Source: Escherichia phage OES_C-1. From it: DNA of 64,000 bases. The translations under genes and the position numbers were made by a program. Each line of letters starts with the position of its first letter. Within the stretch, counting starts at the first letter, position 1. The stretch is from the sequence record PQ553088. One strand, 5' to 3'. This document shows positions 16,920-48,400 of the stretch, piece by piece. The notes beneath the pieces are model-generated. The model was not told the DNA's origin and did no database searches. It was given only the letters and a program-made list of their open reading frames with translations.

Positions 16920-16945
16920 ACAAAGGGACCGAAAGGTCCCTTTTT
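16920..16945. terminator. bidirectional terminator between gene 24 and rnlB
   Basis: GGGACC-GAAA-GGTCCC flanked by A-run and T-run between convergent genes. Confidence 0.7.
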
Positions 16946-18537: not shown

Positions 18538-19956
18538 TTATGGATAGGTATAGATGATACCAGTTTCTAAAGCAGTTTTATGAATGATGTATCCATTACG
18601 CGATTCTTGAACATCAACTTCTGGATAGTCTTTCATCATCTTCTGAAGAGTGTAACGATGTAGGTAATATTTACTATCTGGGTCGTCAGTTTTCCAATCT
18701 TTACCTTCTTCGGTCATTTTTTGGATTTCATCCATAACCCACCAACCGCACCAGATATAAGCTGAAGTACGATGTGGAAGAGGATGAACATAAGGTAGTT
18801 CACCTTCTGGTTCCGGAGCAACTTTATCAGTCACTTGAACTTGACCTGTGGCTTTAACTGTTTTACTATCATAGTCAGTTGCTGTAACGACAGCAGTAAC
18901 TTCAATAGTTTGACTTCCAATAGATGAGGTATCAACAGTATATACGTTAGTTGACCCTTCTACAGGAGAAGAATCTTTCTTCCATGAGTAAGTAATTTGT
19001 GCTGCTTCAGGTGCGCCAGTAACATTAGCAGTAAATGTAGCCGAAGCATCTTGCTGAACATTAATAGAAGGAGGAGTCAATGTAACCTGTGGATTCATTG
19101 TCTTCTTATTAACTGTCAATGATACTTCATTAGAAGTAACTGTTTTTGCGTCGTAATCCGTTGCTGTTACTTGGGCTATACATTTAATTTTTTTAACTCC
19201 AGCCACAGTTGGAGTATAGTTAAATGTAGAGTTAGTTTCTCCACCAACTTGTGAATCATCTACATACCACTGATACGTAGCAGACGCTCCATCAGGTTGA
19301 GAAGCTAATGCAGCAGTAAATTGAACCGGGGTTCCAATTACTCCAGCAGCAGGACTAGCAGGAGTTACTGCCAAGGTAGTTGTCTGCGTCTTTTTATTAA
19401 CAGTCAGTGACACTTCATTAGAAGTAACTTCCTTTGTATCATAATCTGCCGCGGTTACTTGAGCTACACACTTAATTGTTTTAACTCCGCTTGTAGTAGG
19501 AGTATAATTGAATGTAGCAGAAGTTGCTTCGCTCACAGGAGAACCGTCAACGTACCATTGATACGTAGCAGATGCGCCCGATGGCTGTGAAGCTAAGGCA
19601 GCAGTAAATTCAACAGCTGTTCCGATTACTCCTTCTGGAGGACTATTAGGAGTTACAGCTAAGGTAGTTGTCTGTGTCTTATTTTGAACTGTGATAGTTG
19701 TACTAATTTCAGCTGTTTCAGCATCAGTATCTGGAACTGGGTTTGTTGCAACTACTTTAATAGTTTTTTGACCGGCAGGTCCTTTTAGTACATAACTAAA
19801 AGTTGCAGATGTTTCTTCCTGTGGAACATCATCTACAGTCCAAGCATATGTAATAGGTCCATCTCCAGTTTCACCACTGGGTGTAGCAGTAAACTGCTGA
19901 GTCTGATCTATAACTCCAGTAGGTGTTTTAGGAGTTATATCAACTGTAAAAGCCAT
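18538..19956 (-). CDS. hoc: highly immunogenic outer capsid protein Hoc, with an extra Ig-like domain
   Basis: 472 aa; N-terminal Ig-like domains and C-terminal capsid-binding region as in T4 Hoc; contains a 96-aa tandem duplication. Confidence 0.9.
   Translation of the reverse strand: MAFTVDITPKTPTGVIDQTQQFTATPSGETGDGPITYAWTVDDVPQEETSATFSYVLKGPAGQKTIKVVATNPVPDTDAETAEISTTITVQNKTQTTTLAVTPNSPPEGVIGTAVEFTAALASQPSGASATYQWYVDGSPVSEATSATFNYTPTTSGVKTIKCVAQVTAADYDTKEVTSNEVSLTVNKKTQTTTLAVTPASPAAGVIGTPVQFTAALASQPDGASATYQWYVDDSQVGGETNSTFNYTPTVAGVKKIKCIAQVTATDYDAKTVTSNEVSLTVNKKTMNPQVTLTPPSINVQQDASATFTANVTGAPEAAQITYSWKKDSSPVEGSTNVYTVDTSSIGSQTIEVTAVVTATDYDSKTVKATGQVQVTDKVAPEPEGELPYVHPLPHRTSAYIWCGWWVMDEIQKMTEEGKDWKTDDPDSKYYLHRYTLQKMMKDYPEVDVQESRNGYIIHKTALETGIIYTYP
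19102..19677 (-). repeat. intragenic tandem duplication (2 x 288 bp) encoding two Ig-like domains of Hoc
   Basis: Protein residues 94-189 and 190-285 are near-identical (TQTTTLAVTP...SLTVNKK); the DNA copies are clearly related. Confidence 0.85.
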
Positions 19957-30737: not shown

Positions 30738-30765
30738 ATGGGGACCGAAAGGTCCCCATGTTTTT
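30738..30765 (+). terminator. intrinsic terminator after gene 54
   Basis: ATGGGGACC-GAAA-GGTCCCCAT followed by GTTTTTATTT. Confidence 0.7.
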
Positions 30766-31054
30766 ATTTACGGAATGAAATAAAAGCAGCAACTGAAGCA
30801 ACTAAACTGTCTTCAATATAAACTTCAATTTTTACCGGAGTTTCTGACTCAAATTTACCTGTTACTACACCCTGGAAAATGCTTTCAGTCTGTTCTGGCT
30901 TTGAGAAATTTTCAGAAGGAAAAATTCCGAACTTTTTATCTGTTCCAAAAATTTTGATAAATTCGTCGTAAACCGCTTCATTAAAAGCGTTATCAGCAGG
31001 AATAACGCCTTCAACTATGAGTTCTTGACCTAAAAAGCGCAAAGAAGATTTCAT
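30764..31054 (-). CDS. hypothetical protein (gene 54-alt intergenic ORF)
   Basis: 96-aa ORF with early promoter and GAGG RBS upstream. Confidence 0.55.
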   Translation of the reverse strand: MKSSLRFLGQELIVEGVIPADNAFNEAVYDEFIKIFGTDKKFGIFPSENFSKPEQTESIFQGVVTGKFESETPVKIEVYIEDSLVASVAAFISFRK

Positions 31055-31085
31055 TTTGTGTTCCTCATGTTATGTCAGTAAGATT

Positions 31086-31115
31086 ATTATAACACAACAC
31101 GAGTGACTTGTAAAC
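31086..31115 (-). promoter_or_regulatory. early (sigma70-type) promoter GTTTAC-N18-TATAAT
   Basis: Minus strand GTTTAC (31110-31115) and TATAAT (31086-31091); drives the 96-aa ORF. Confidence 0.55.
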
Positions 31116-33172
31116 TACATCTTGAACTTTTTAGACATTCCATTGATGTTAACCAAAGAAGCCAAGATTTGAGAAACTTCATTTTCCTCTTCTTTTGATT
31201 CTTCTACAAGGAATTGGTTAAATCCAGTCATTGGACGAACTTCACCAGTTTCCATCAGATGGTCACCATCATATACCGATTCTTCTAATTGTTCAGAAGG
31301 AGGAACGATTGTGCCTTCGATTAGATACTTGTTATAAGCAGTTTCTTTCATCATGTACGTACTCACTTTATTAATCTTCAGCAAAATTCCACGCGGTAGA
31401 ATAACTTCAGCTTCTGATGGAAATCCTGATAAATGACCTGGAACGATAACTTTGATTCGCTCAGCTCCTTTAATTACCATACCCACGCTAGTTTCAGCAT
31501 CTTCATTGGCATACGCAGAATGACTGCCCATATGCATTAAATCTTCAGCATCAACGGAACCTTCTCCTTCACCAGAAAATACTGCACTGGAATCATCTAG
31601 GGCCATATAGTTTTTACCATACTCACCGAAGATATTTGGTTTAAGTGATGTGGATACGAAGTTCTTGAAATAGAACATTTTATTTTCAATATTATGACGT
31701 AAAGTTTTAAAGGTAACTTCTTGGCCACGGTAAAGCGTAGTTCCTGGAGGAAGAACTGATCCTTTGGCAAAGGCAGAATCCATTGTCTCGATGTGTTTAA
31801 TAGCTCGTTCCATGTATTCTTCACGTGTAGAATCTGGTTTACCTAAAAGGAACGAGTTCATTTCAACATATGAATCTGCACAATAATCTTCAATTACATC
31901 AGACTCAGCTTGAGTTAATCCTTTTGGAGTTACTTCAGTACTTGCATATTCATACGCTTGAGAAGCAGACTCATTAATCAATTTATAAACGCCATTCATG
32001 ACAAATTGAACAATAGCTACCTTTTCATCTGGCGTGGCTTTAGAACCTTTAACTAAATCATTGATAATTTTCTTAATAACATCAAAGCTATTAGAAATAT
32101 TAATGTCAGCAAGATCGCTTAAAATTTTATCAGTTTTATAATCAAAAAATTCTTTATTCTTTAAATATTCCTGAGAACCTTGATATGTTATATCGCTCTG
32201 TAACTTGATAGATGGATCACGTAAACGTGCATGAGCCAATGCAATATGATTTCGGAAGCTTTCGAGTTCATAATCACTAGATTTAAAACGAGAAGCACTT
32301 CTCATACCACCGATAGCTCCTTTGCTGAAGTTTGAACCAACCTGAATAACGCCGGAGTTCATTGGTCCTTCTGCTTTATATACCGGAACTTTAGATTCAA
32401 ACTCTTGATATTTCTTAGCAGCGAAGCTATCACCCTGAAGTGAAGCATCGACAGTAGAGTATTGAGCTTGTGCTGCTAATCGACGACTAATTTTAGTTTT
32501 CTGAATAACAGCTTGATCTGTGCGCTTATCATTTTCTAAAGCAATAGAAGCAGCAACAGCGACAGCTTTAGGAACAGCATTACCTGTTTTAACATCTACA
32601 TAAACATCACCAACCTTTGATTCAACTTTTGTGAATAACTCAGTTGAAATAGGAGGTACACCTGGAATGTCTTCTAAATTGGCATTTTTACGGTAAACCA
32701 TAATATATGCATATTTCTTATCATAGTCCCAGATTTCCTTTAAAAGAACATATCGACCTGCTCCTTTAGTACGTACTAAACGGTCGGCAATAACTTGCAT
32801 TTGACGAGCAGCGCCATTTGTTTTACTTTTTAGTACGCGGAATAGGCATGCGTCAATTTTATACTGTTTCATTGTTTGAAGAGCAGTATCAAAAACCGCA
32901 TTAATGACACCAATTGGATTTCCACCCAAGTTTTTAAGTTTAACTAATGATAGTTTTTCATTGACACCTATCATTACGATATGCATCATTTTATCGCCTG
33001 GCTTAACGTTTTTATTTGTATCACCGCCAGAGGTGTATGTACAAAATCTAAATCCAGGAAGCACACTTTCTTCACCTGCTTGAATAGCAAAAATTTGAGG
33101 TATTTTATGCTTAGGATTTAAGTTAACAACCGGCGCCGAAGCGCCGTCAAATAATTCTGTAATAAGTTCCAT
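31115..33172 (-). CDS. Alt-family ADP-ribosyltransferase paralog (685 aa)
   Basis: N-terminal ~230 aa about 65% identical to the adjacent Alt; ART R-S-EXE motifs (YRGQ, FVSTSL, EAEVILPRG). Confidence 0.8.
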   Translation of the reverse strand: MELITELFDGASAPVVNLNPKHKIPQIFAIQAGEESVLPGFRFCTYTSGGDTNKNVKPGDKMMHIVMIGVNEKLSLVKLKNLGGNPIGVINAVFDTALQTMKQYKIDACLFRVLKSKTNGAARQMQVIADRLVRTKGAGRYVLLKEIWDYDKKYAYIMVYRKNANLEDIPGVPPISTELFTKVESKVGDVYVDVKTGNAVPKAVAVAASIALENDKRTDQAVIQKTKISRRLAAQAQYSTVDASLQGDSFAAKKYQEFESKVPVYKAEGPMNSGVIQVGSNFSKGAIGGMRSASRFKSSDYELESFRNHIALAHARLRDPSIKLQSDITYQGSQEYLKNKEFFDYKTDKILSDLADINISNSFDVIKKIINDLVKGSKATPDEKVAIVQFVMNGVYKLINESASQAYEYASTEVTPKGLTQAESDVIEDYCADSYVEMNSFLLGKPDSTREEYMERAIKHIETMDSAFAKGSVLPPGTTLYRGQEVTFKTLRHNIENKMFYFKNFVSTSLKPNIFGEYGKNYMALDDSSAVFSGEGEGSVDAEDLMHMGSHSAYANEDAETSVGMVIKGAERIKVIVPGHLSGFPSEAEVILPRGILLKINKVSTYMMKETAYNKYLIEGTIVPPSEQLEESVYDGDHLMETGEVRPMTGFNQFLVEESKEEENEVSQILASLVNINGMSKKFKM

Positions 33173-33175
33173 GAT

Positions 33176-35272
33176 TTATCCTTGAACGAACTTGTAAGGC
33201 ATGTTTGTAATATCTATGCAAGACGCAATAATTCCAAGAGATGATTCTACTTTCTGTTTAACATTTGATGAAACAAATGATGCAAAGTCAACTCTGTCTT
33301 CTATTTCAATATCACCTGTCATTGCAACTACTTCACCAGTTTCCATTAGACGGTCACCGTCATAAATTACTGATTCGGTGAGTTCTTCCGTAGTCATAAC
33401 TTCAGCTTGAATGAGTTTTGTATTATTAGATGTTGTTCCGTCATTATTAGAAGCATCAGTTATTTTATTAACTTTGACCATCAATCCGCGTGGTAGAATT
33501 ACTTCAGCTTCTGTTGCTATTCCGAGACTTCCTGGATATACAACATTAACTTTATGAGCTCCATCAATTGCCCATCCTATTTGAACTTTAACGTATTCAG
33601 GATTTTCTTTATACGCTCTTATTTCGTTTGGATTAATAGTTATTCCTTCTTCATTTTTATCAACTGTTAATTCATTGCGAGCTTCTGGTTCTAAAAGACC
33701 GATACCAGCATGTGTAATTCCAAAACGTCCAAAAATGATAGGAGTTAAAGAAGTAGATACAAAATTTCTGAAATAGAACACTTTATTTTTAACTAGTGCT
33801 TCGTATATAGGAGCAGTCATACTTTGAGCACGATAAACTGTAATGCCTTCTGGTATACGGTCACCATTTTCAAAAGCTGAATCTAAGTTATTTATAGCAG
33901 ATTCAATTTCTTTTTCACTCATTACATCATATCGTTCTGGATTGTAGCGGCCTAAAAGAAGATTATTGATGTCAGTATATCCTGATCCACAATACTCTCT
34001 AATGCCGCGCTTTTGCGATGGAGTATATTTAGAACCATCACGTGCAATGGTAATATCAATCATTGGACCTGCACCAATTCCAGAAAAGCTATAAATCATT
34101 CGTTTGAGGAATTTAGTTTTTGCTGCGTTCCAGGAATTTTTAGTTATTTCTTCCCAGACTTCATCTGGCTGCCCTTTACGAGTTTTATTATGTTTATCAA
34201 GCCAATTATCTTTATATTCTTCAAAGAGTTGATTAATAGCTGCTGCGTATTTCTCTAAACATTTTATTGAAGTAGTTGGTTCATTTTTAATCGCATTAAG
34301 AATTACATCTTTAATTTTTTCAGAAACTTCATCAACCTCACTTTTTGAAAAGAATTTATAGTCATAGTGAAGTTCATTTGCAGTTCCTTCGGCAATAATT
34401 TTTGCTGCCTTAGTTTTAGAAGCTAATGAATTAATTCCAAGCTTCATTTCTTCTGCTTCGGGAATTAAAGGAGCGGTAGCAGGTTTATTAAAATTAGCTG
34501 CGGTAGATTCATACTTCTGGAATAATTCACTTTCAAATCTAGAAGATTCTAATGACTGACTTTGCGCAATTGCTCTACGGGAAATTTTAACTTTAACAAT
34601 AACAGCTTGGTCAGAACGTTTATCATTTTCTTGTGCAATAGATGCTGCAATTGCCTCATTTTTAGTTACTTGAGCTCCGGTATCTTTATTGATATAAACA
34701 TCGCCGACCTTCGATTCAACTTTAGTAAAGAGCTCGGTACTAATTTCCGGAACTCCTGGAATGTCTTCTAGTGATACATTTTTGCGATGTATAAGAATAT
34801 ATGCATACTTTTTATCATAATCCCAGAGTTCCTTAAGAAGGACGTATCTGCCACCTGAACGACTACGGATAAGTCTATCAGCAATAACTTGAATTTGTCG
34901 AGCTTGACCAGCAGTTTTAGACTTAAGAATACGAAGCATACAGGCATCAATTTTATACTGACGCATTGTTTGCATTGCAACAGTAAAAACTGAATTGATG
35001 TAATTAATTGGGCTTGGACCGAGACCTTTTAATTTAGCAATTGAACCTTTAGCAGTTAGTGTAAAAGGAACAATGTGCATCATTTTATCGCCCATCTTTA
35101 AATCACGGTTAGTATCACCTCCAGATGTATATGTACATAAACGAAAGCCTGGTTGCTCAATTGCGTCATCAACATGAACTGAAAAAATTTGCGGTATTTT
35201 CTTCTTTGGATTTAAGTTTGTAATCGGAAGAGTAGTATCTTCGTCAAATAATTCTGTAATAAGTTCCATCAT
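33176..35272 (-). CDS. alt: Alt ADP-ribosyltransferase (packaged internal head protein), 698 aa
   Basis: MELITELFD N-terminus; ART motifs YRAQ, FVSTSL, EAEVILPRG; minus-strand late promoter at 35293-35300. Confidence 0.85.
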   Translation of the reverse strand: MMELITELFDEDTTLPITNLNPKKKIPQIFSVHVDDAIEQPGFRLCTYTSGGDTNRDLKMGDKMMHIVPFTLTAKGSIAKLKGLGPSPINYINSVFTVAMQTMRQYKIDACMLRILKSKTAGQARQIQVIADRLIRSRSGGRYVLLKELWDYDKKYAYILIHRKNVSLEDIPGVPEISTELFTKVESKVGDVYINKDTGAQVTKNEAIAASIAQENDKRSDQAVIVKVKISRRAIAQSQSLESSRFESELFQKYESTAANFNKPATAPLIPEAEEMKLGINSLASKTKAAKIIAEGTANELHYDYKFFSKSEVDEVSEKIKDVILNAIKNEPTTSIKCLEKYAAAINQLFEEYKDNWLDKHNKTRKGQPDEVWEEITKNSWNAAKTKFLKRMIYSFSGIGAGPMIDITIARDGSKYTPSQKRGIREYCGSGYTDINNLLLGRYNPERYDVMSEKEIESAINNLDSAFENGDRIPEGITVYRAQSMTAPIYEALVKNKVFYFRNFVSTSLTPIIFGRFGITHAGIGLLEPEARNELTVDKNEEGITINPNEIRAYKENPEYVKVQIGWAIDGAHKVNVVYPGSLGIATEAEVILPRGLMVKVNKITDASNNDGTTSNNTKLIQAEVMTTEELTESVIYDGDRLMETGEVVAMTGDIEIEDRVDFASFVSSNVKQKVESSLGIIASCIDITNMPYKFVQG

Positions 35273-35292: not shown

Positions 35293-35300
35293 TATTTATA
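35293..35300 (-). promoter_or_regulatory. late promoter TATAAATA (alt)
   Basis: Plus TATTTATA, 21 nt upstream of the 698-aa Alt start. Confidence 0.55.
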
Positions 35301-39681: not shown

Positions 39682-40014
39682 TTATTTTACTACTTTCCAA
39701 TGTTGCATGTCAAGTTTACCAACTTTTTTCATCTTCTCAATTAAGCGTTCGGCACGTTGGCGAGCTGTAACATAGTACCATTCGCCTAATTCATTTTGTT
39801 CAATTTTTCCAACGATTACTGTATTCAATTCATAAATCCAACCAGTAAAGAAATTATGAACTTGAATTGTAAAGGTGAAATCTGTTCCCATACCTTCTGT
39901 TGTTTCTACTTCAACAATATCACCTTTAACTGCCATTAAGAACCACATAGTTTCATCATATTTACCATTGAAGCATTTAGTTTTAACCGCAGCGTTCAGA
40001 TTAATCGTTTTCAT
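39682..40014 (-). CDS. hypothetical protein (30.8 position)
   Basis: 110-aa ORF. Confidence 0.5.
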   Translation of the reverse strand: MKTINLNAAVKTKCFNGKYDETMWFLMAVKGDIVEVETTEGMGTDFTFTIQVHNFFTGWIYELNTVIVGKIEQNELGEWYYVTARQRAERLIEKMKKVGKLDMQHWKVVK

Positions 40015-40084
40015 TTTATTCTCCTTTGTTTGTGTAAGATAATACTATCACAAAGGAACCATACTGTAAACAACTTTGTGCAAT

Positions 40085-43456: not shown

Positions 43457-43485
43457 TAATATCACAACTCTACCGTAAAGTAAAC
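43457..43485 (-). promoter_or_regulatory. early promoter-like GTTTAC-N18-TATTAT upstream of cd.3 ORF
   Basis: Minus strand GTTTAC at 43480-43485; weaker -10; overlaps an inverted repeat GGTAGAG/CTCTACC. Confidence 0.4.
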
Positions 43486-45904: not shown

Positions 45905-46254
45905 TTAGAAAGGTCCTGGATGTCTTCTGCGAACTTGTTGAAGGAGTTGTTGATTTGTTTTTCAACCAATCCTGGCTTATGAGCCACCACATCCGCCTTC
46001 TTTGCGTCTTTGCGCAGTTTTTCATTTTCACGCTCAATAGCAGCAATTGCCTCACGATTTTTATTATTCATCGCATCAATATAATTATACTGAATTCGCA
46101 AATTATTTAATGCTAAAGCGTTTTCATTGGCCGTTTTTGTAATTTCTACAACAGACGTTTCTAATCTTTCAATTTTACTTTTTAAAATTAAAGAAGTTCC
46201 GCCCAATGCAATTACAATTAATAGCAAGCCTGCTGTCGTATTACTTAATTGCAT
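45901..46254 (-). CDS. i-spanin (inner-membrane, Rz-like; pseT.3 position)
   Basis: 117 aa; N-terminal TM helix then charged coiled-coil region; directly upstream of the lipoprotein. Confidence 0.7.
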   Translation of the reverse strand: MQLSNTTAGLLLIVIALGGTSLILKSKIERLETSVVEITKTANENALALNNLRIQYNYIDAMNNKNREAIAAIERENEKLRKDAKKADVVAHKPGLVEKQINNSFNKFAEDIQDLSK

Positions 46255-46751
46255 AAAGTTTTAATAACCTCTATAATATCGTCTTGAGAAAGACCGTTAA
46301 TTAAAATATGATGTTCAGCCGGAGATTTAGAAATTTTAAAGCATGCCTCAACATCTTCTGCCATATCTGATGCGCTACGATTTGGATTGCTAATTCCAAG
46401 ACGATGTTTTCCCGTCAAAGGATTAACGATGATATAGCATTTACAGTTGTTAATATGAACATTAGGTTGAGTCTGATTAATGAACACATCACAATCATAT
46501 TTCGCAAGCTGATTTTCTAAAAAGACTTTCATCTCCTCAACCGCATCAGGAAGCATATCACGGGCTTGCTCAAGACGACGATTTCGATATTCTTTAATGG
46601 TCGTTTTCCGCTTGACTTGCTTAGCTAAATCTTTCTTAAGATCGGTGATATATCCAACTCGACGATTTCCTTTAAATACAGAAATCCCATCTGTAGTATC
46701 ACCATATGCTTCAACGACCATTTCAGTAGTAATAAGCTGCAAATCCATCAT
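46245..46751 (-). CDS. alc: Alc, host transcription-shutoff protein
   Basis: 168 aa, T4 length and position between the spanins and rnlA; early promoter upstream. Confidence 0.8.
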   Translation of the reverse strand: MMDLQLITTEMVVEAYGDTTDGISVFKGNRRVGYITDLKKDLAKQVKRKTTIKEYRNRRLEQARDMLPDAVEEMKVFLENQLAKYDCDVFINQTQPNVHINNCKCYIIVNPLTGKHRLGISNPNRSASDMAEDVEACFKISKSPAEHHILINGLSQDDIIEVIKTLCN

Positions 46752-46779
46752 AAAGTCCTCATGTTATGTCAGTAAGACT

Positions 46780-46809
46780 ACTGTAACACAACACGAGGGA
46801 CTTGTAAAC
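46780..46809 (-). promoter_or_regulatory. early promoter GTTTAC-N18-TACAGT (alc)
   Basis: Minus strand GTTTAC (46804-46809) and TACAGT (46780-46785); ~92% identical to the 31062-31114 cassette. Confidence 0.55.
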
Positions 46810-46812
46810 AGC

Positions 46813-48400
<1,588 letters not shown>

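What the first reader, a model, noticed from the sequence alone, without database searches (positions are those of the whole stretch)
31062..31114. Near-identical ~53-bp early promoter plus leader cassette found twice, 15.7 kb apart
31062-31114 and 46757-46809 differ at only 4 of 53 positions. On the minus strand each reads GTTTAC, an 18-nt spacer, a -10 element, then the same leader ...CUUACUGACAUAACAUGAGGA before an ATG (the 96-aa ORF and alc respectively). The identity extends beyond the promoter hexamers into the 5' UTR, suggesting a shared regulatory element or a recombination-prone repeat.
Basis: seen in the sequence. Interest (0 to 1): 0.45.

Follow-up and report, generated by a model that had tools for sequence, protein, structure and literature searches.

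The report
Duplicated early promoter inside an RNA hairpin
Two T4-type phage genes (alc and alt.-3) carry near-identical 54-bp copies of a cassette in which an early promoter sits inside an RNA hairpin that hides the ribosome-binding site, so probably only transcripts started at that promoter are translated.

Summary
The repeat is real. Minus-strand 31115-31062 (before alt.-3) and 46809-46756 (before alc) match at 50 of 54 positions. The other 35 pairs of early-promoter cassettes in the window share 25.4 +/- 5.8 positions (maximum 37).

The window is a Tequatrovirus. All but one of 499 matching public genomes carry exactly two copies (997 places). The two copies differ at one position in T4 and at none in G9062 and ECO4.

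The repeat runs exactly from the -35 box (GTTTAC) to the Shine-Dalgarno GAGGA. The promoter spacer and -10 pair with the leader and SD in a hairpin of about 20 bp (-19.6 to -25.7 kcal/mol; z -4.1 to -5.3). The predicted start site lies inside the hairpin.

The same design precedes alc in at least nine genus-level lineages with different arm sequences (own spacer/leader -14.6 vs cross -8.4 kcal/mol; 0 of 100,000 permutations). Outgroup alt.-3 cassettes lack it, so the alc cassette was most likely copied onto alt.-3 in the Tequatrovirus ancestor.

Proposed function, untested: the SD is hidden on read-through RNA and free on own-promoter RNA, as in T4 e, soc, 49 and I-TevI but with an early promoter. 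It is a PeSL-type cassette of moderate interest.

The parts
31062..31115 (-). Cassette copy A, upstream of alt.-3: 54 bp from the -35 box to the SD. Its first G (31115) is also the last base of the stop codon of the upstream alt-like gene.
46756..46809 (-). Cassette copy B, upstream of alc: 54 bp from the -35 box to the SD. It begins 3 nt after the rnlA stop codon.
31109..31115 (-). Copy A -35 element, GTTTACA (sigma-70 reading TTTACA at 31114-31109).
31086..31094 (-). Copy A extended -10, TGT+TATAAT (hexamer 31091-31086).
31079..31079 (-). Copy A predicted transcription start (A, 7 nt after the -10). It lies on the 3' side of the hairpin loop. Inferred, not mapped.
   Evidence: inference and sequence
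31085..31106 (-). Copy A 5' arm of the hairpin (promoter spacer plus -10, cassette positions 10-31). It is absent from own-promoter transcripts.
31062..31080 (-). Copy A 3' arm of the hairpin (+1 region, leader and SD GAGGA at 31066-31062).
30764..31054 (-). alt.-3 (96 aa, DUF5498), the gene served by copy A.
46803..46809 (-). Copy B -35 element, GTTTACA.
46780..46788 (-). Copy B extended -10, TGT+TACAGT (hexamer 46785-46780). It is weaker than T4's TATAGT.
46773..46773 (-). Copy B predicted transcription start (A). Inferred, not mapped.
   Evidence: inference
46779..46803 (-). Copy B 5' arm of the hairpin (cassette positions 7-31).
46753..46774 (-). Copy B 3' arm of the hairpin (leader, SD GAGGA at 46760-46756, plus CUU).
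46245..46748 (-). alc (167 aa from the second ATG, as annotated in T4; an in-frame ATG lies 3 nt upstream).
31115..33172 (-). Alt-like ADP-ribosyltransferase paralog directly upstream of copy A. No terminator is predicted between it and the cassette, so it is a likely source of read-through RNA.
35293..35300 (-). T4 late-promoter motif TATAAATA just upstream of alt (a second copy at 33889-33896). Likely source of late read-through transcripts that enter copy A.
   Evidence: SA20RB annotation
46813..47973 (-). rnlA directly upstream of copy B. No terminator is predicted between it and the cassette.

Best explanation
Each copy is a composite regulatory cassette of the PeSL type (promoter-early stem-loop). 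It has two layers.

(1) DNA layer. It is a strong sigma-70 early promoter: -35 GTTTACA, a TGn extended -10, and a predicted start at cassette position 37.

(2) RNA layer. Cassette positions 7/10-31 (promoter spacer plus -10) are complementary to positions 36-54/57 (+1 region, leader and Shine-Dalgarno). Any transcript that enters from the upstream gene therefore folds into a hairpin of about 20 bp that buries the SD. For alc the upstream gene is rnlA. For alt.-3 it is the late-transcribed alt genes. Transcripts started at the cassette's own promoter begin inside the hairpin, lack the 5' arm and have a free SD.

The inferred consequence is that alc and alt.-3 are translated essentially only from their own immediate-early transcripts and stay silent on read-through middle or late RNA. 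This is the logic known for T4 e, soc, 49 and I-TevI, but with an early promoter instead of a late one, so the timing is inverted.

(3) Origin. The hairpin-plus-promoter design is ancestral at alc. The near-identity of the two copies arose when the alc cassette replaced the original alt.-3 cassette in the Tequatrovirus ancestor. The likely route is a short patch of ectopic gene conversion, bounded by the motifs both ancestral cassettes already shared (GTTTACA and ATGAGGA).

Shown here: the repeat, its two-copy distribution across the genus, the promoter match, the hairpin and its cross-genus covariation, and its absence from outgroup alt.-3 cassettes. Inferred: the start sites, translational gating as the function, and the conversion mechanism.
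For: Repeat and distribution.

Promoter:
- Consensus match.
- Other annotators place 'promoter' or 'predicted early promoter' features exactly on GTTTAC...-10 at each site in related genomes.
- In T4, alc and alt.-3 are both classed early-RNA/early-protein although alt, directly upstream of alt.-3, is late (PMC9697503 main text and supplements).

Hairpin:
- MFE -19.6, -25.7 and -24.4 kcal/mol, with z -4.1 to -5.3 against dinucleotide shuffles and 0 of 200 shuffles as good.
- Three G.U pairs point to RNA rather than DNA.

Conservation with covariation:
- The alc SD is fully paired (4 of 5 nt in Marfavirus) to spacer positions 8-15 in Tequatrovirus, Dhakavirus, Karamvirus, Marfavirus (weak), Gelderlandvirus, Roskildevirus, Klebsiella phage TNG87, Bragavirus and Winklervirus. 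The arms differ in sequence, for example AUCUCCGUUUAGUU/AACUAAACGGAGAU and AACCUCUCAUUUU/AAAAUGAGAGGUU.
- Own spacer-leader duplexes average -14.6 kcal/mol against -8.4 +/- 3.7 for cross-genus pairs. None of 100,000 permutations reached the observed value.
- Within Tequatrovirus, recurrent variants keep the pairing (C11U, C15U, G16A, C42U, G40A) and there is one double change, C15U+G50A.

Gating:
- The predicted cost to open SD..AUG is 11.5-14.0 kcal/mol in read-through RNA against 3.2-5.5 in own-promoter RNA.
- For alc, the probability that the SD is unpaired is 0.03 against 0.73.

Read-through sources: no terminator is predicted between the upstream genes and the cassettes, and TATAAATA motifs lie upstream of alt.

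Direction of copying:
- Outgroup alt.-3 cassettes in six genera carry only a short hairpin inside the spacer, with no SD-to-spacer hairpin (z -2.0 to +0.7).
- Within-genome alc versus alt.-3 identity is 0.71-0.73 in outgroups against 0.91-1.00 in Tequatrovirus.
- The flanks outside GTTTACA...GAGGA remain orthologous to the outgroup alt.-3 flanks.

Known analogue: PMC3014915.
Against: - No transcription start, translation or RNA-structure experiment was available for either site. The start at position 37 is predicted only.
- Within-genus covariation is not significant on its own. There is one double change, 93 of 500 shuffles reach the observed score, and six variant types break a pair, although five of these were each seen in only one variant sequence.
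- For alt.-3 the own-promoter transcript is still predicted to form a weak 5-bp pairing of the SD with the early coding region. The SD unpaired probability is 0.15, although the opening cost is only about 3 kcal/mol.
- Mosigvirus and Providencia phage PSTCR6 alc cassettes, and all outgroup alt.-3 cassettes, do without SD sequestration. The gate is therefore dispensable.
- PeSL stem-loops have been shown to lower downstream reporter expression and were interpreted as terminators or attenuators (PMC2839356). That reading could account for the hairpin without any translational effect.
- Sequence identity alone does not resolve the direction of copying.
Confidence: 0.6

Rival explanations
1. The hairpin is mainly a transcriptional attenuator, terminator or insulator, which is the published reading of PeSL stem-loops. 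It would stop or dampen transcription arriving from rnlA or from the late alt genes, and the embedded promoter would restart expression. SD pairing would be incidental. This is not exclusive of the main explanation.
For: PeSL stem-loops lie between -35 and -10 or overlap the -10. One of them reduced lacZ expression as much as a strong terminator (PMC2839356). The SA20RB record annotates the alt.-3 hairpin as a WebGeSTer rho-independent terminator. A stop before the convergent late gene 54 would make sense for alt.-3.
Against: No U-tract follows the stem in either copy or in the other genera; the tails read ACACAAAAUG, UAUGAUGG, UAACAAUG and AUUGAAAUG. The terminator scan finds nothing at either cassette, although it does find the real bidirectional terminator at 30738-30759. 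Across genera the part of the 3' arm that covaries is specifically the SD segment, which a terminator does not require.
Confidence: 0.25
2. This is an ordinary early promoter pair. The near-identity is only the footprint of a gene conversion before the genus radiated, and the hairpin has no function of its own.
For: Paralogous differences (0-5 of 54) are no smaller than orthologous differences between Tequatrovirus genomes (0-5). Neither ongoing homogenisation nor special selection is needed to explain the identity. Within-genus covariation is not significant.
Against: The hairpin at alc is kept in nine genus-level lineages with different arm sequences (0 of 100,000 permutations). Its stability is far beyond that of shuffles (z to -6.6). 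This is hard to explain without selection on pairing.
Confidence: 0.1
3. The imperfect palindrome acts at the DNA level. It would be an operator for a dimeric protein that shuts off early promoters, or a cruciform that modulates promoter opening.
For: The dyad spans the -35/-10 spacer and the +1 region, a typical operator position. The mechanism of early-promoter shut-off is described as not fully understood (PMC3014915).
Against: The arm sequences are not conserved between genera while complementarity is. A protein site would show the opposite pattern. Three G.U pairs (G.T in DNA) and G.U/A-U/G-C alternation at pair 16-49 fit RNA pairing.
Confidence: 0.05
4. The repeat is maintained as a recombination substrate for modular shuffling, through PeSL mini-circle excision or integration of the 15.7-kb segment between the copies.
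For: PeSL pairs recombine and form mini-circles in RB49 and phi1. T4 recombination needs only about 50 bp of homology (PMC2839356).
Against: The interval contains genes 30 and 31, which are essential (own knowledge of T4). Two copies are present in essentially every genome of the genus (997 places in 499 records). Spacing stays 13.2-15.9 kb in the nine genomes where both copies were located. No deletion or duplication variant was seen in that sample.
Confidence: 0.05

Closest known systems
PeSL (promoter-early stem-loop) cassettes of T4-type phages (Arbiol et al. 2010, PMC2839356; Comeau et al. 2014, PMC4122927)
   Same: The cassette sits in the intergenic gap right after the upstream stop codon. 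It has a sigma-70-like early promoter (the T4/PST form is TTTACW-N17-TAYWAT), a stem-loop that overlaps the -10, and an SD and ATG at its 3' end. Copies share enough sequence to recombine.
   Different: Here the stem extends to and buries the SD, which the PeSL papers do not discuss; the 2010 paper contains no occurrence of 'translation', 'ribosome' or 'sequester'. The two copies are 91-100% identical rather than merely consensus-like. They lie in a conserved, largely essential gene block, not around ORFans in a hyperplastic region. I could not check whether these two sites appear in the published PST figure.
T4 translation-initiation-region hairpins with an internal promoter: genes e (lysozyme), soc, 49 and I-TevI (reviewed in PMC3014915)
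   Same: The SD and/or AUG is sequestered in a helix on long read-through transcripts. A promoter lying within the DNA that encodes the 5' part of the structure yields transcripts that lack the 5' strand and are translated.
   Different: Those cases use late promoters (TATAAATA) and restrict translation to late times. Here the internal promoter is an early sigma-70 promoter, so translation would be restricted to immediate-early transcripts. Those cases are experimentally established and this one is not.
T4 early promoters (UP/-35/TGn/-10 promoters; Hinton 2010, PMC2988021)
   Same: GTTTAC -35, TGn extended -10, a 17/18-nt spacer, and position before early genes.
   Different: The generic family shares only about 47% of positions over 54 nt in this window. 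This pair shares 93%, and the similarity continues through the leader.
Intrinsic (rho-independent) terminators
   Same: A stable hairpin at the end of an upstream gene. One database record annotates it as a terminator.
   Different: There is no U-tract, the loop or inner stem holds a promoter -10, and the 3' arm is an SD.

Membership tests
T4-type early (sigma-70) promoter | -35 GTTTAC/TTTACA, a 17-18 nt spacer, TGn and a TAnnnT -10 | tested here: met
   TTTACA-17-TG-TATAAT, 11 of 12. TTTACA-17-TG-TACAGT, 9 of 12. T4 has TATAGT at both sites.
T4-type early (sigma-70) promoter | A/T-rich UP element upstream of the -35 | tested here: inconclusive
   A-tracts lie about 10-25 nt upstream of the -35 hexamer in both copies (AAAAAG; AAAAAATTT). 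The regions are coding sequence and unrelated to each other. No scoring was done.
T4-type early (sigma-70) promoter | Transcription starts here immediately after infection | not testable with these tools
   Indirect evidence only. T4 alc and alt.-3 are early-RNA/early-protein while the upstream alt is late (PMC9697503). No start-site data were found.
PeSL cassette | [quoted passage not shown] | tested here: met
   The stop codon of the alt paralog overlaps the G of GTTTAC. The rnlA stop lies 3 nt before the cassette. SD and ATG follow.
PeSL cassette | Stable stem-loop between -35 and -10 or overlapping the -10 | tested here: met
   a hairpin of about 20 bp encloses the -10, with z -4.1 to -5.9.
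PeSL cassette | Located in hyperplastic regions next to ORFans or indels, and mediating their shuffling | tested here: not met
   Both sites are syntenic across all genera examined except Gaprivervirus ECML-359, which lacks the alc promoter. The 13-16 kb between them is conserved. The only nearby plasticity is decay of the alt paralog in T4.
PeSL cassette | Stem-loop terminates or attenuates upstream transcription | not testable with these tools
   No U-tract, and the terminator scan does not flag it. An experiment is needed.
T4 TIR-sequestering hairpin with internal promoter (e, soc, 49, I-TevI) | SD and/or AUG paired in a helix on read-through RNA | tested here: met
   In prediction only. 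The SD is paired 5/5 (alc) and 3-4/5 (alt.-3). The opening cost is 11.5-14 kcal/mol. Cross-genus covariation supports the pairing.
T4 TIR-sequestering hairpin with internal promoter (e, soc, 49, I-TevI) | The promoter lies within the structure, so its transcripts lack the 5' strand | tested here: met
   The 5' arm (positions 7/10-31) is the spacer plus the -10 itself, so it lies upstream of any start this promoter can use. The start site itself is inferred.
T4 TIR-sequestering hairpin with internal promoter (e, soc, 49, I-TevI) | The internal promoter is a late promoter (TATAAATA) | tested here: not met
   There is no TATAAATA in either cassette. The promoter is of the early sigma-70 type. I therefore describe it as working like this family, as a variant, and not as a member in the strict sense.
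T4 TIR-sequestering hairpin with internal promoter (e, soc, 49, I-TevI) | Measured difference in translation between long and short transcripts | not testable with these tools
   Requires reporter, toeprint or ribosome-profiling experiments.
Intrinsic terminator | G+C-rich stem followed by a U-run | tested here: not met
   Searches list no terminator at either cassette. The tails are not U-rich.

The most novel reading that the evidence does not exclude
A portable 'promoter plus translational gate' module. The alc early promoter has been kept inside an SD-sequestering hairpin in nine of the genus-level Straboviridae lineages sampled, so that Alc is made only from its own immediate-early transcript. 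In Tequatrovirus the whole module was transplanted by a 54-bp gene conversion onto another gene, alt.-3, which lies behind strongly late-transcribed genes. That would impose the same early-only translation rule on it. This would be an early-promoter counterpart, with inverted timing, of the classic T4 lysozyme/soc control. It would also be a concrete example of regulatory logic moving between loci as a unit.
Probability: 0.45. Interest if true: 0.55.

Novelty: new variant of a known kind. Interest (0 to 1): 0.45.

Why it matters
The two sequences are present in T4 itself, so the hypothesis can be tested directly in the best-studied phage.

If the gating is real, it adds an early-promoter version to the small set of T4 genes controlled by promoter-dependent unmasking of the ribosome-binding site. 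It would explain why alt.-3 behaves as an early gene although it lies directly behind late genes. It would also give PeSL stem-loops a second role, translational rather than only terminating.

The cross-genus covariation between a promoter spacer and a Shine-Dalgarno region shows that DNA-level and RNA-level constraints are superimposed on the same 54 bp. This is relevant for anyone who reuses T4 early promoters as parts, or who edits these intergenic regions.

If the gating is not real, the finding reduces to a tidy but ordinary case of gene conversion between two early promoters.

Tried and rejected
- **Generic consensus.** Rejected. The pair shares 50 of 54 positions against a maximum of 37 for other pairs, and each genome has exactly two copies.
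- **Larger segmental duplication.** Rejected. The flanks are unrelated and the gene products differ.
- **Direction of copying from sequence identity.** Inconclusive. The Tequatrovirus cassette scores 0.63-0.77 against outgroup alc cassettes and 0.68-0.73 against outgroup alt.-3 cassettes. Direction was inferred from architecture instead.
- **Within-genus covariation.** Twenty distinct variants gave one double change, which is not significant. The cross-genus duplex permutation test was used instead.
- **Metagenome scan.** The first scan found nothing because my pattern had one N too many. The corrected pattern gave only 9 stretches in metagenomes and 10 in IMG/VR. IMG/VR held only six Alc-encoding loci.
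- **Rfam.** No family matched anywhere in the window.
- **Literature.** Searches found no start-site map for T4 and no description of an alc or alt.-3 leader hairpin. The T4 genome review (PMC150520) is not held. I could not check whether these two promoters or their identity are listed there.
- **RegB or RegA target.** Not supported. The Tequatrovirus SD GAGGA has no GGAG, and the leader does not resemble the RegA SELEX consensus quoted in PMC3014915.
- **Mini-ORF in the leader.** In both copies the AUG of CAUGAGGA opens a 4-5 codon frame that ends in a UGA overlapping the gene's AUG. It is not conserved in Dhakavirus, Gelderlandvirus or Marfavirus leaders. I treat it as coincidence.

Full report
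**What the window is.** The window is a T4-like phage of the genus Tequatrovirus. It is 100% identical to Escherichia phage OES_C-2 across both regions and 95-99% identical to hundreds of relatives. The 96-aa ORF 30764-31054 (minus strand) is Alt.-3, Pfam DUF5498. ORF 46245-46748 is Alc, Pfam PF17527. The 685-aa ORF directly upstream of alt.-3 is a second Alt-like ADP-ribosyltransferase.

**Checking the observation.** On the minus strand, 31115..31062 and 46809..46756 are 54-nt sequences that differ at four positions. The similarity starts exactly at GTTTAC and ends exactly at GAGGA, and both flanks are unrelated.

A sigma-70 scan reads TTTACA-17 nt-TG-TATAAT (11 of 12) for the alt.-3 copy and TTTACA-17 nt-TG-TACAGT (9 of 12) for the alc copy.

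I listed nine clear early-promoter cassettes on this strand of the window and compared all pairs. This pair shares 50 of 54 positions. The other 35 pairs share 25.4 +/- 5.8, with a maximum of 37. Downstream of the -10 the pair shares 23 of 24 positions against a mean of 9.0 and a maximum of 15. This is therefore not the early-promoter consensus.

**Distribution.** A blastn search of the 54-mer against 50,697 phage records gives 997 places in 499 records. That is two per genome, and all of them are Tequatrovirus. T4 itself has both copies and they differ at one position. In G9062 and ECO4 they are identical, and in T6 they differ at five positions. Where both copies were located, they lie 13.2-15.9 kb apart with the genes between them retained.

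**The cassette is a hairpin.** Folding the cassette as RNA gives a hairpin of about 20 bp.
- The 5' arm is cassette positions 7/10-31: the promoter spacer plus the -10 hexamer.
- The loop is GUCU/AUCU (32-35).
- The 3' arm is positions 36-54/57: the +1 region, the leader and the Shine-Dalgarno GAGGA.

MFE is -19.6 kcal/mol for the window alt.-3 copy, -25.7 for the window alc copy and -24.4 for T4 alc. The z-scores are -4.1 to -5.3 against dinucleotide shuffles, and 0 of 200 shuffles fold as well. Three pairs are G.U, which fits RNA rather than DNA.

The 5' arm is the spacer and -10 of the promoter itself, so any transcript started by this promoter (predicted +1 at position 37; window 31079 and 46773) lacks that arm.

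**Is the hairpin real? Within the genus.** I collected 45 copies, which gave 20 distinct variants.
- Positions 1-10 are invariant, and positions 43-54 are invariant apart from one G50A.
- Four of the seven unpaired positions vary.
- The recurrent changes at paired positions keep pairing: C11U and C15U opposite G, G16A opposite U, C42U opposite G, and G40A opposite U.
- One copy carries the compensatory pair C15U+G50A.
- Six variant types break a pair. Five of them were each seen in only one variant sequence. The sixth, G29A, creates a perfect TATAAT.

Formally this is weak. There is one double change, and 93 of 500 shuffles reach the observed score. That is expected at 96% mean column identity.

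**Is the hairpin real? Across genera.** The decisive evidence comes from other genera. Every lineage examined except Gaprivervirus ECML-359 has a GTTTAC-type (Roskildevirus: GTGTAC) early promoter directly after the rnlA stop codon.

In Dhakavirus, Karamvirus, Marfavirus (weaker), Gelderlandvirus, Roskildevirus, Klebsiella phage TNG87, Bragavirus and Winklervirus, the 8-14 nt that follow the -35 are complementary to the SD segment before the alc ATG. This is perfectly or almost perfectly so in all of them except Marfavirus. The sequences differ from genus to genus:
- AUCUCCGUUUAGUU / AACUAAACGGAGAU
- AUCCUCAUCAG / CUGAUGAGGAU
- AACCUCUCAUUUU / AAAAUGAGAGGUU
- UCCUCAUUUCGUU / AACGAAAUGAGGA
- UCUCCUCAU / AUGAGGAGA

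The folds are -12 to -25 kcal/mol with z -2.2 to -6.6, and the SD is fully paired (4 of 5 nt in Marfavirus).

In an alignment-free test, each spacer's duplex with its own leader averages -14.6 kcal/mol against -8.4 +/- 3.7 for leaders of other genera. None of 100,000 permutations reached the observed mean. Mosigvirus and Providencia phage PSTCR6 lack the SD pairing.

**Origin of the second copy.** Outgroup alt.-3 cassettes also have a GTTTAC promoter and an (A)UGAGGA SD. This holds for Dhakavirus (two genomes), Mosigvirus, Karamvirus (two), Marfavirus (two), Gelderlandvirus and Moonvirus. They contain only a short hairpin inside the spacer, of the CCACA..UGUGG type, and have no SD-to-spacer hairpin (z -2.0 to +0.7).

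Within-genome identity between the alc and alt.-3 cassettes is 0.71-0.73 in outgroups. That is no higher than between arbitrary cassettes of this family. In Tequatrovirus it is 0.91-1.00.

Outside GTTTACA...GAGGA, the Tequatrovirus alt.-3 flanks are still orthologous to those of Dhakavirus (...TTCAAAATGTAG upstream).

The most economical reading is that the alc-type cassette replaced the alt.-3-type cassette once, before the Tequatrovirus radiation. The route would be a short conversion patch anchored on the motifs both cassettes already shared. Plain sequence identity does not decide the direction, so this inference rests on architecture. Paralogous differences (0-5) are no smaller than orthologous ones, so continuing homogenisation is neither required nor excluded.

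**How it most likely works.** On RNA that reads in from upstream, the complete hairpin forms and the SD is buried.
- The predicted cost to open SD..AUG is 11.5-14.0 kcal/mol on read-through RNA and 3.2-5.5 kcal/mol on RNA beginning at +1.
- For alc the probability that the SD is unpaired rises from 0.03 to 0.73. For alt.-3 a weak local pairing remains in the short RNA.

Read-through is plausible. No terminator is predicted between rnlA and the alc cassette or between the alt paralog and the alt.-3 cassette, while the scan does find the bidirectional terminator at 30738-30759. Late-promoter motifs TATAAATA lie at 35293-35300 and 33889-33896 on the same strand.

Published T4 omics class alc and alt.-3 as early RNA and early protein, alt as late, and rnlA as early RNA and late protein (PMC9697503). 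This fits an independent early promoter before alt.-3 and translation confined to early times. It does not prove the gate.

**Comparison with known systems.** The anatomy matches the PeSL cassettes of T4-type phages. [quoted passage not shown] The PeSL papers interpret the stem-loop as a terminator or attenuator and do not mention translation.

The proposed mechanism is that of T4 e, soc, 49 and I-TevI. In those genes an inhibitory helix covers the initiation region on long transcripts, and a late promoter inside the structure yields translatable RNA (PMC3014915). Here the internal promoter is early, so one defining feature of that set is not met and the timing is inverted.

The cassette is not an intrinsic terminator by sequence, because it has no U-tract. 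One record does annotate it as a terminator.

I found no paper that describes this hairpin or the identity of the two promoters. The main T4 genome review was not available to me, so prior description cannot be excluded.

**Verdict.** The element is a two-copy, genus-wide promoter-in-hairpin cassette. Its structure is well supported by cross-genus covariation, its duplication is explained by one ectopic copying event, and its translational-gating function is a specific, testable inference. I rate it a new variant of known kinds, of moderate interest.

Noticed in passing
window minus strand, cassettes starting at 43485, 39679, 55742, 59774 and 40071: Other early-promoter cassettes also carry hairpins that bracket the -10: GGUAGAG..CUCUACC (-16.3, z -3.9), GGUACAGG..CCUGUACC (-19.4, z -5.3) and AGGGUAGUAG..UACCCU (-16.6, z -3.6). 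In these the SD is left free. The cassette at 40071, before ORF 39682-40014, pairs its spacer UUCCUUUGU with the SD ACAAAGGAG (-12.1, z -2.1) and may be a further SD-sequestering case.
   Followed up: partly
L003, L004, L005, L016, L017, L050-L053 (alt.-3 upstream regions of other genera): Outgroup alt.-3 promoters keep a 5-7 bp hairpin wholly inside the -35/-10 spacer, and its arms covary: CCACA/UGUGG, CACAC/GUGUG, AUCC/GGAU, AUCCAC/GUGGAU and GCACA/UGUGU. Its function is unknown. This is the PeSL class 'between -35 and -10'.
   Followed up: partly
L004 (Mosigvirus AV115), the GTTTAC promoter just downstream of the rnlA stop at locus ~14737 (it overlaps the 5' end of the annotated alc CDS): The Mosigvirus alc cassette lacks the SD hairpin. 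Instead it has an alt.-3-like spacer hairpin (ACACC-AAGGAA-GGUGU). It is closer to outgroup alt.-3 cassettes (0.71-0.75) than to alc cassettes (0.60-0.67). This may be a cassette replacement in the opposite direction.
   Followed up: partly
window 31115-33172 and 33176-35272 (minus strand): There are two tandem full-length alt-like ADP-ribosyltransferase genes; repeat families D2, D10, D13 and D15 lie about 2.1 kb apart. T4 has only remnants of the second one (alt.-1 and alt.-2), while Dhakavirus 04086 has three alt-like genes.
   Followed up: no
window 31069-31052 and 46763-46747 (minus strand): The AUG inside CAUGAGGA opens a mini-ORF (MRNTK* or MRTL*) whose UGA stop overlaps the start codon of alt.-3 or alc. 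It has no SD of its own and is not conserved in other genera, so it is probably coincidental.
   Followed up: partly
window 30738-30759: A bidirectional terminator hairpin (AUGGGGACCGAAAGGUCCCCAU) lies between the convergent genes 54 and alt.-3. A related GGGACCGAAAGGTCCC hairpin is at 16925 (repeat family D17).
   Followed up: no
L044 (Gaprivervirus ECML-359): alc is preceded by a short ORF annotated as similar to T4 Alc, apparently a partial alc duplicate (tblastn reported two places). There is no GTTTAC promoter directly upstream.
   Followed up: no
window 19100-19675 (+): A tandem direct repeat of 288 nt, two copies at 77% identity (repeat family D1). It was not examined.
   Followed up: no
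whole window: The late-promoter octamer TATAAATA occurs 19 times against 8.7 +/- 2.9 expected. This agrees with many late promoters in this block of structural genes.
   Followed up: no
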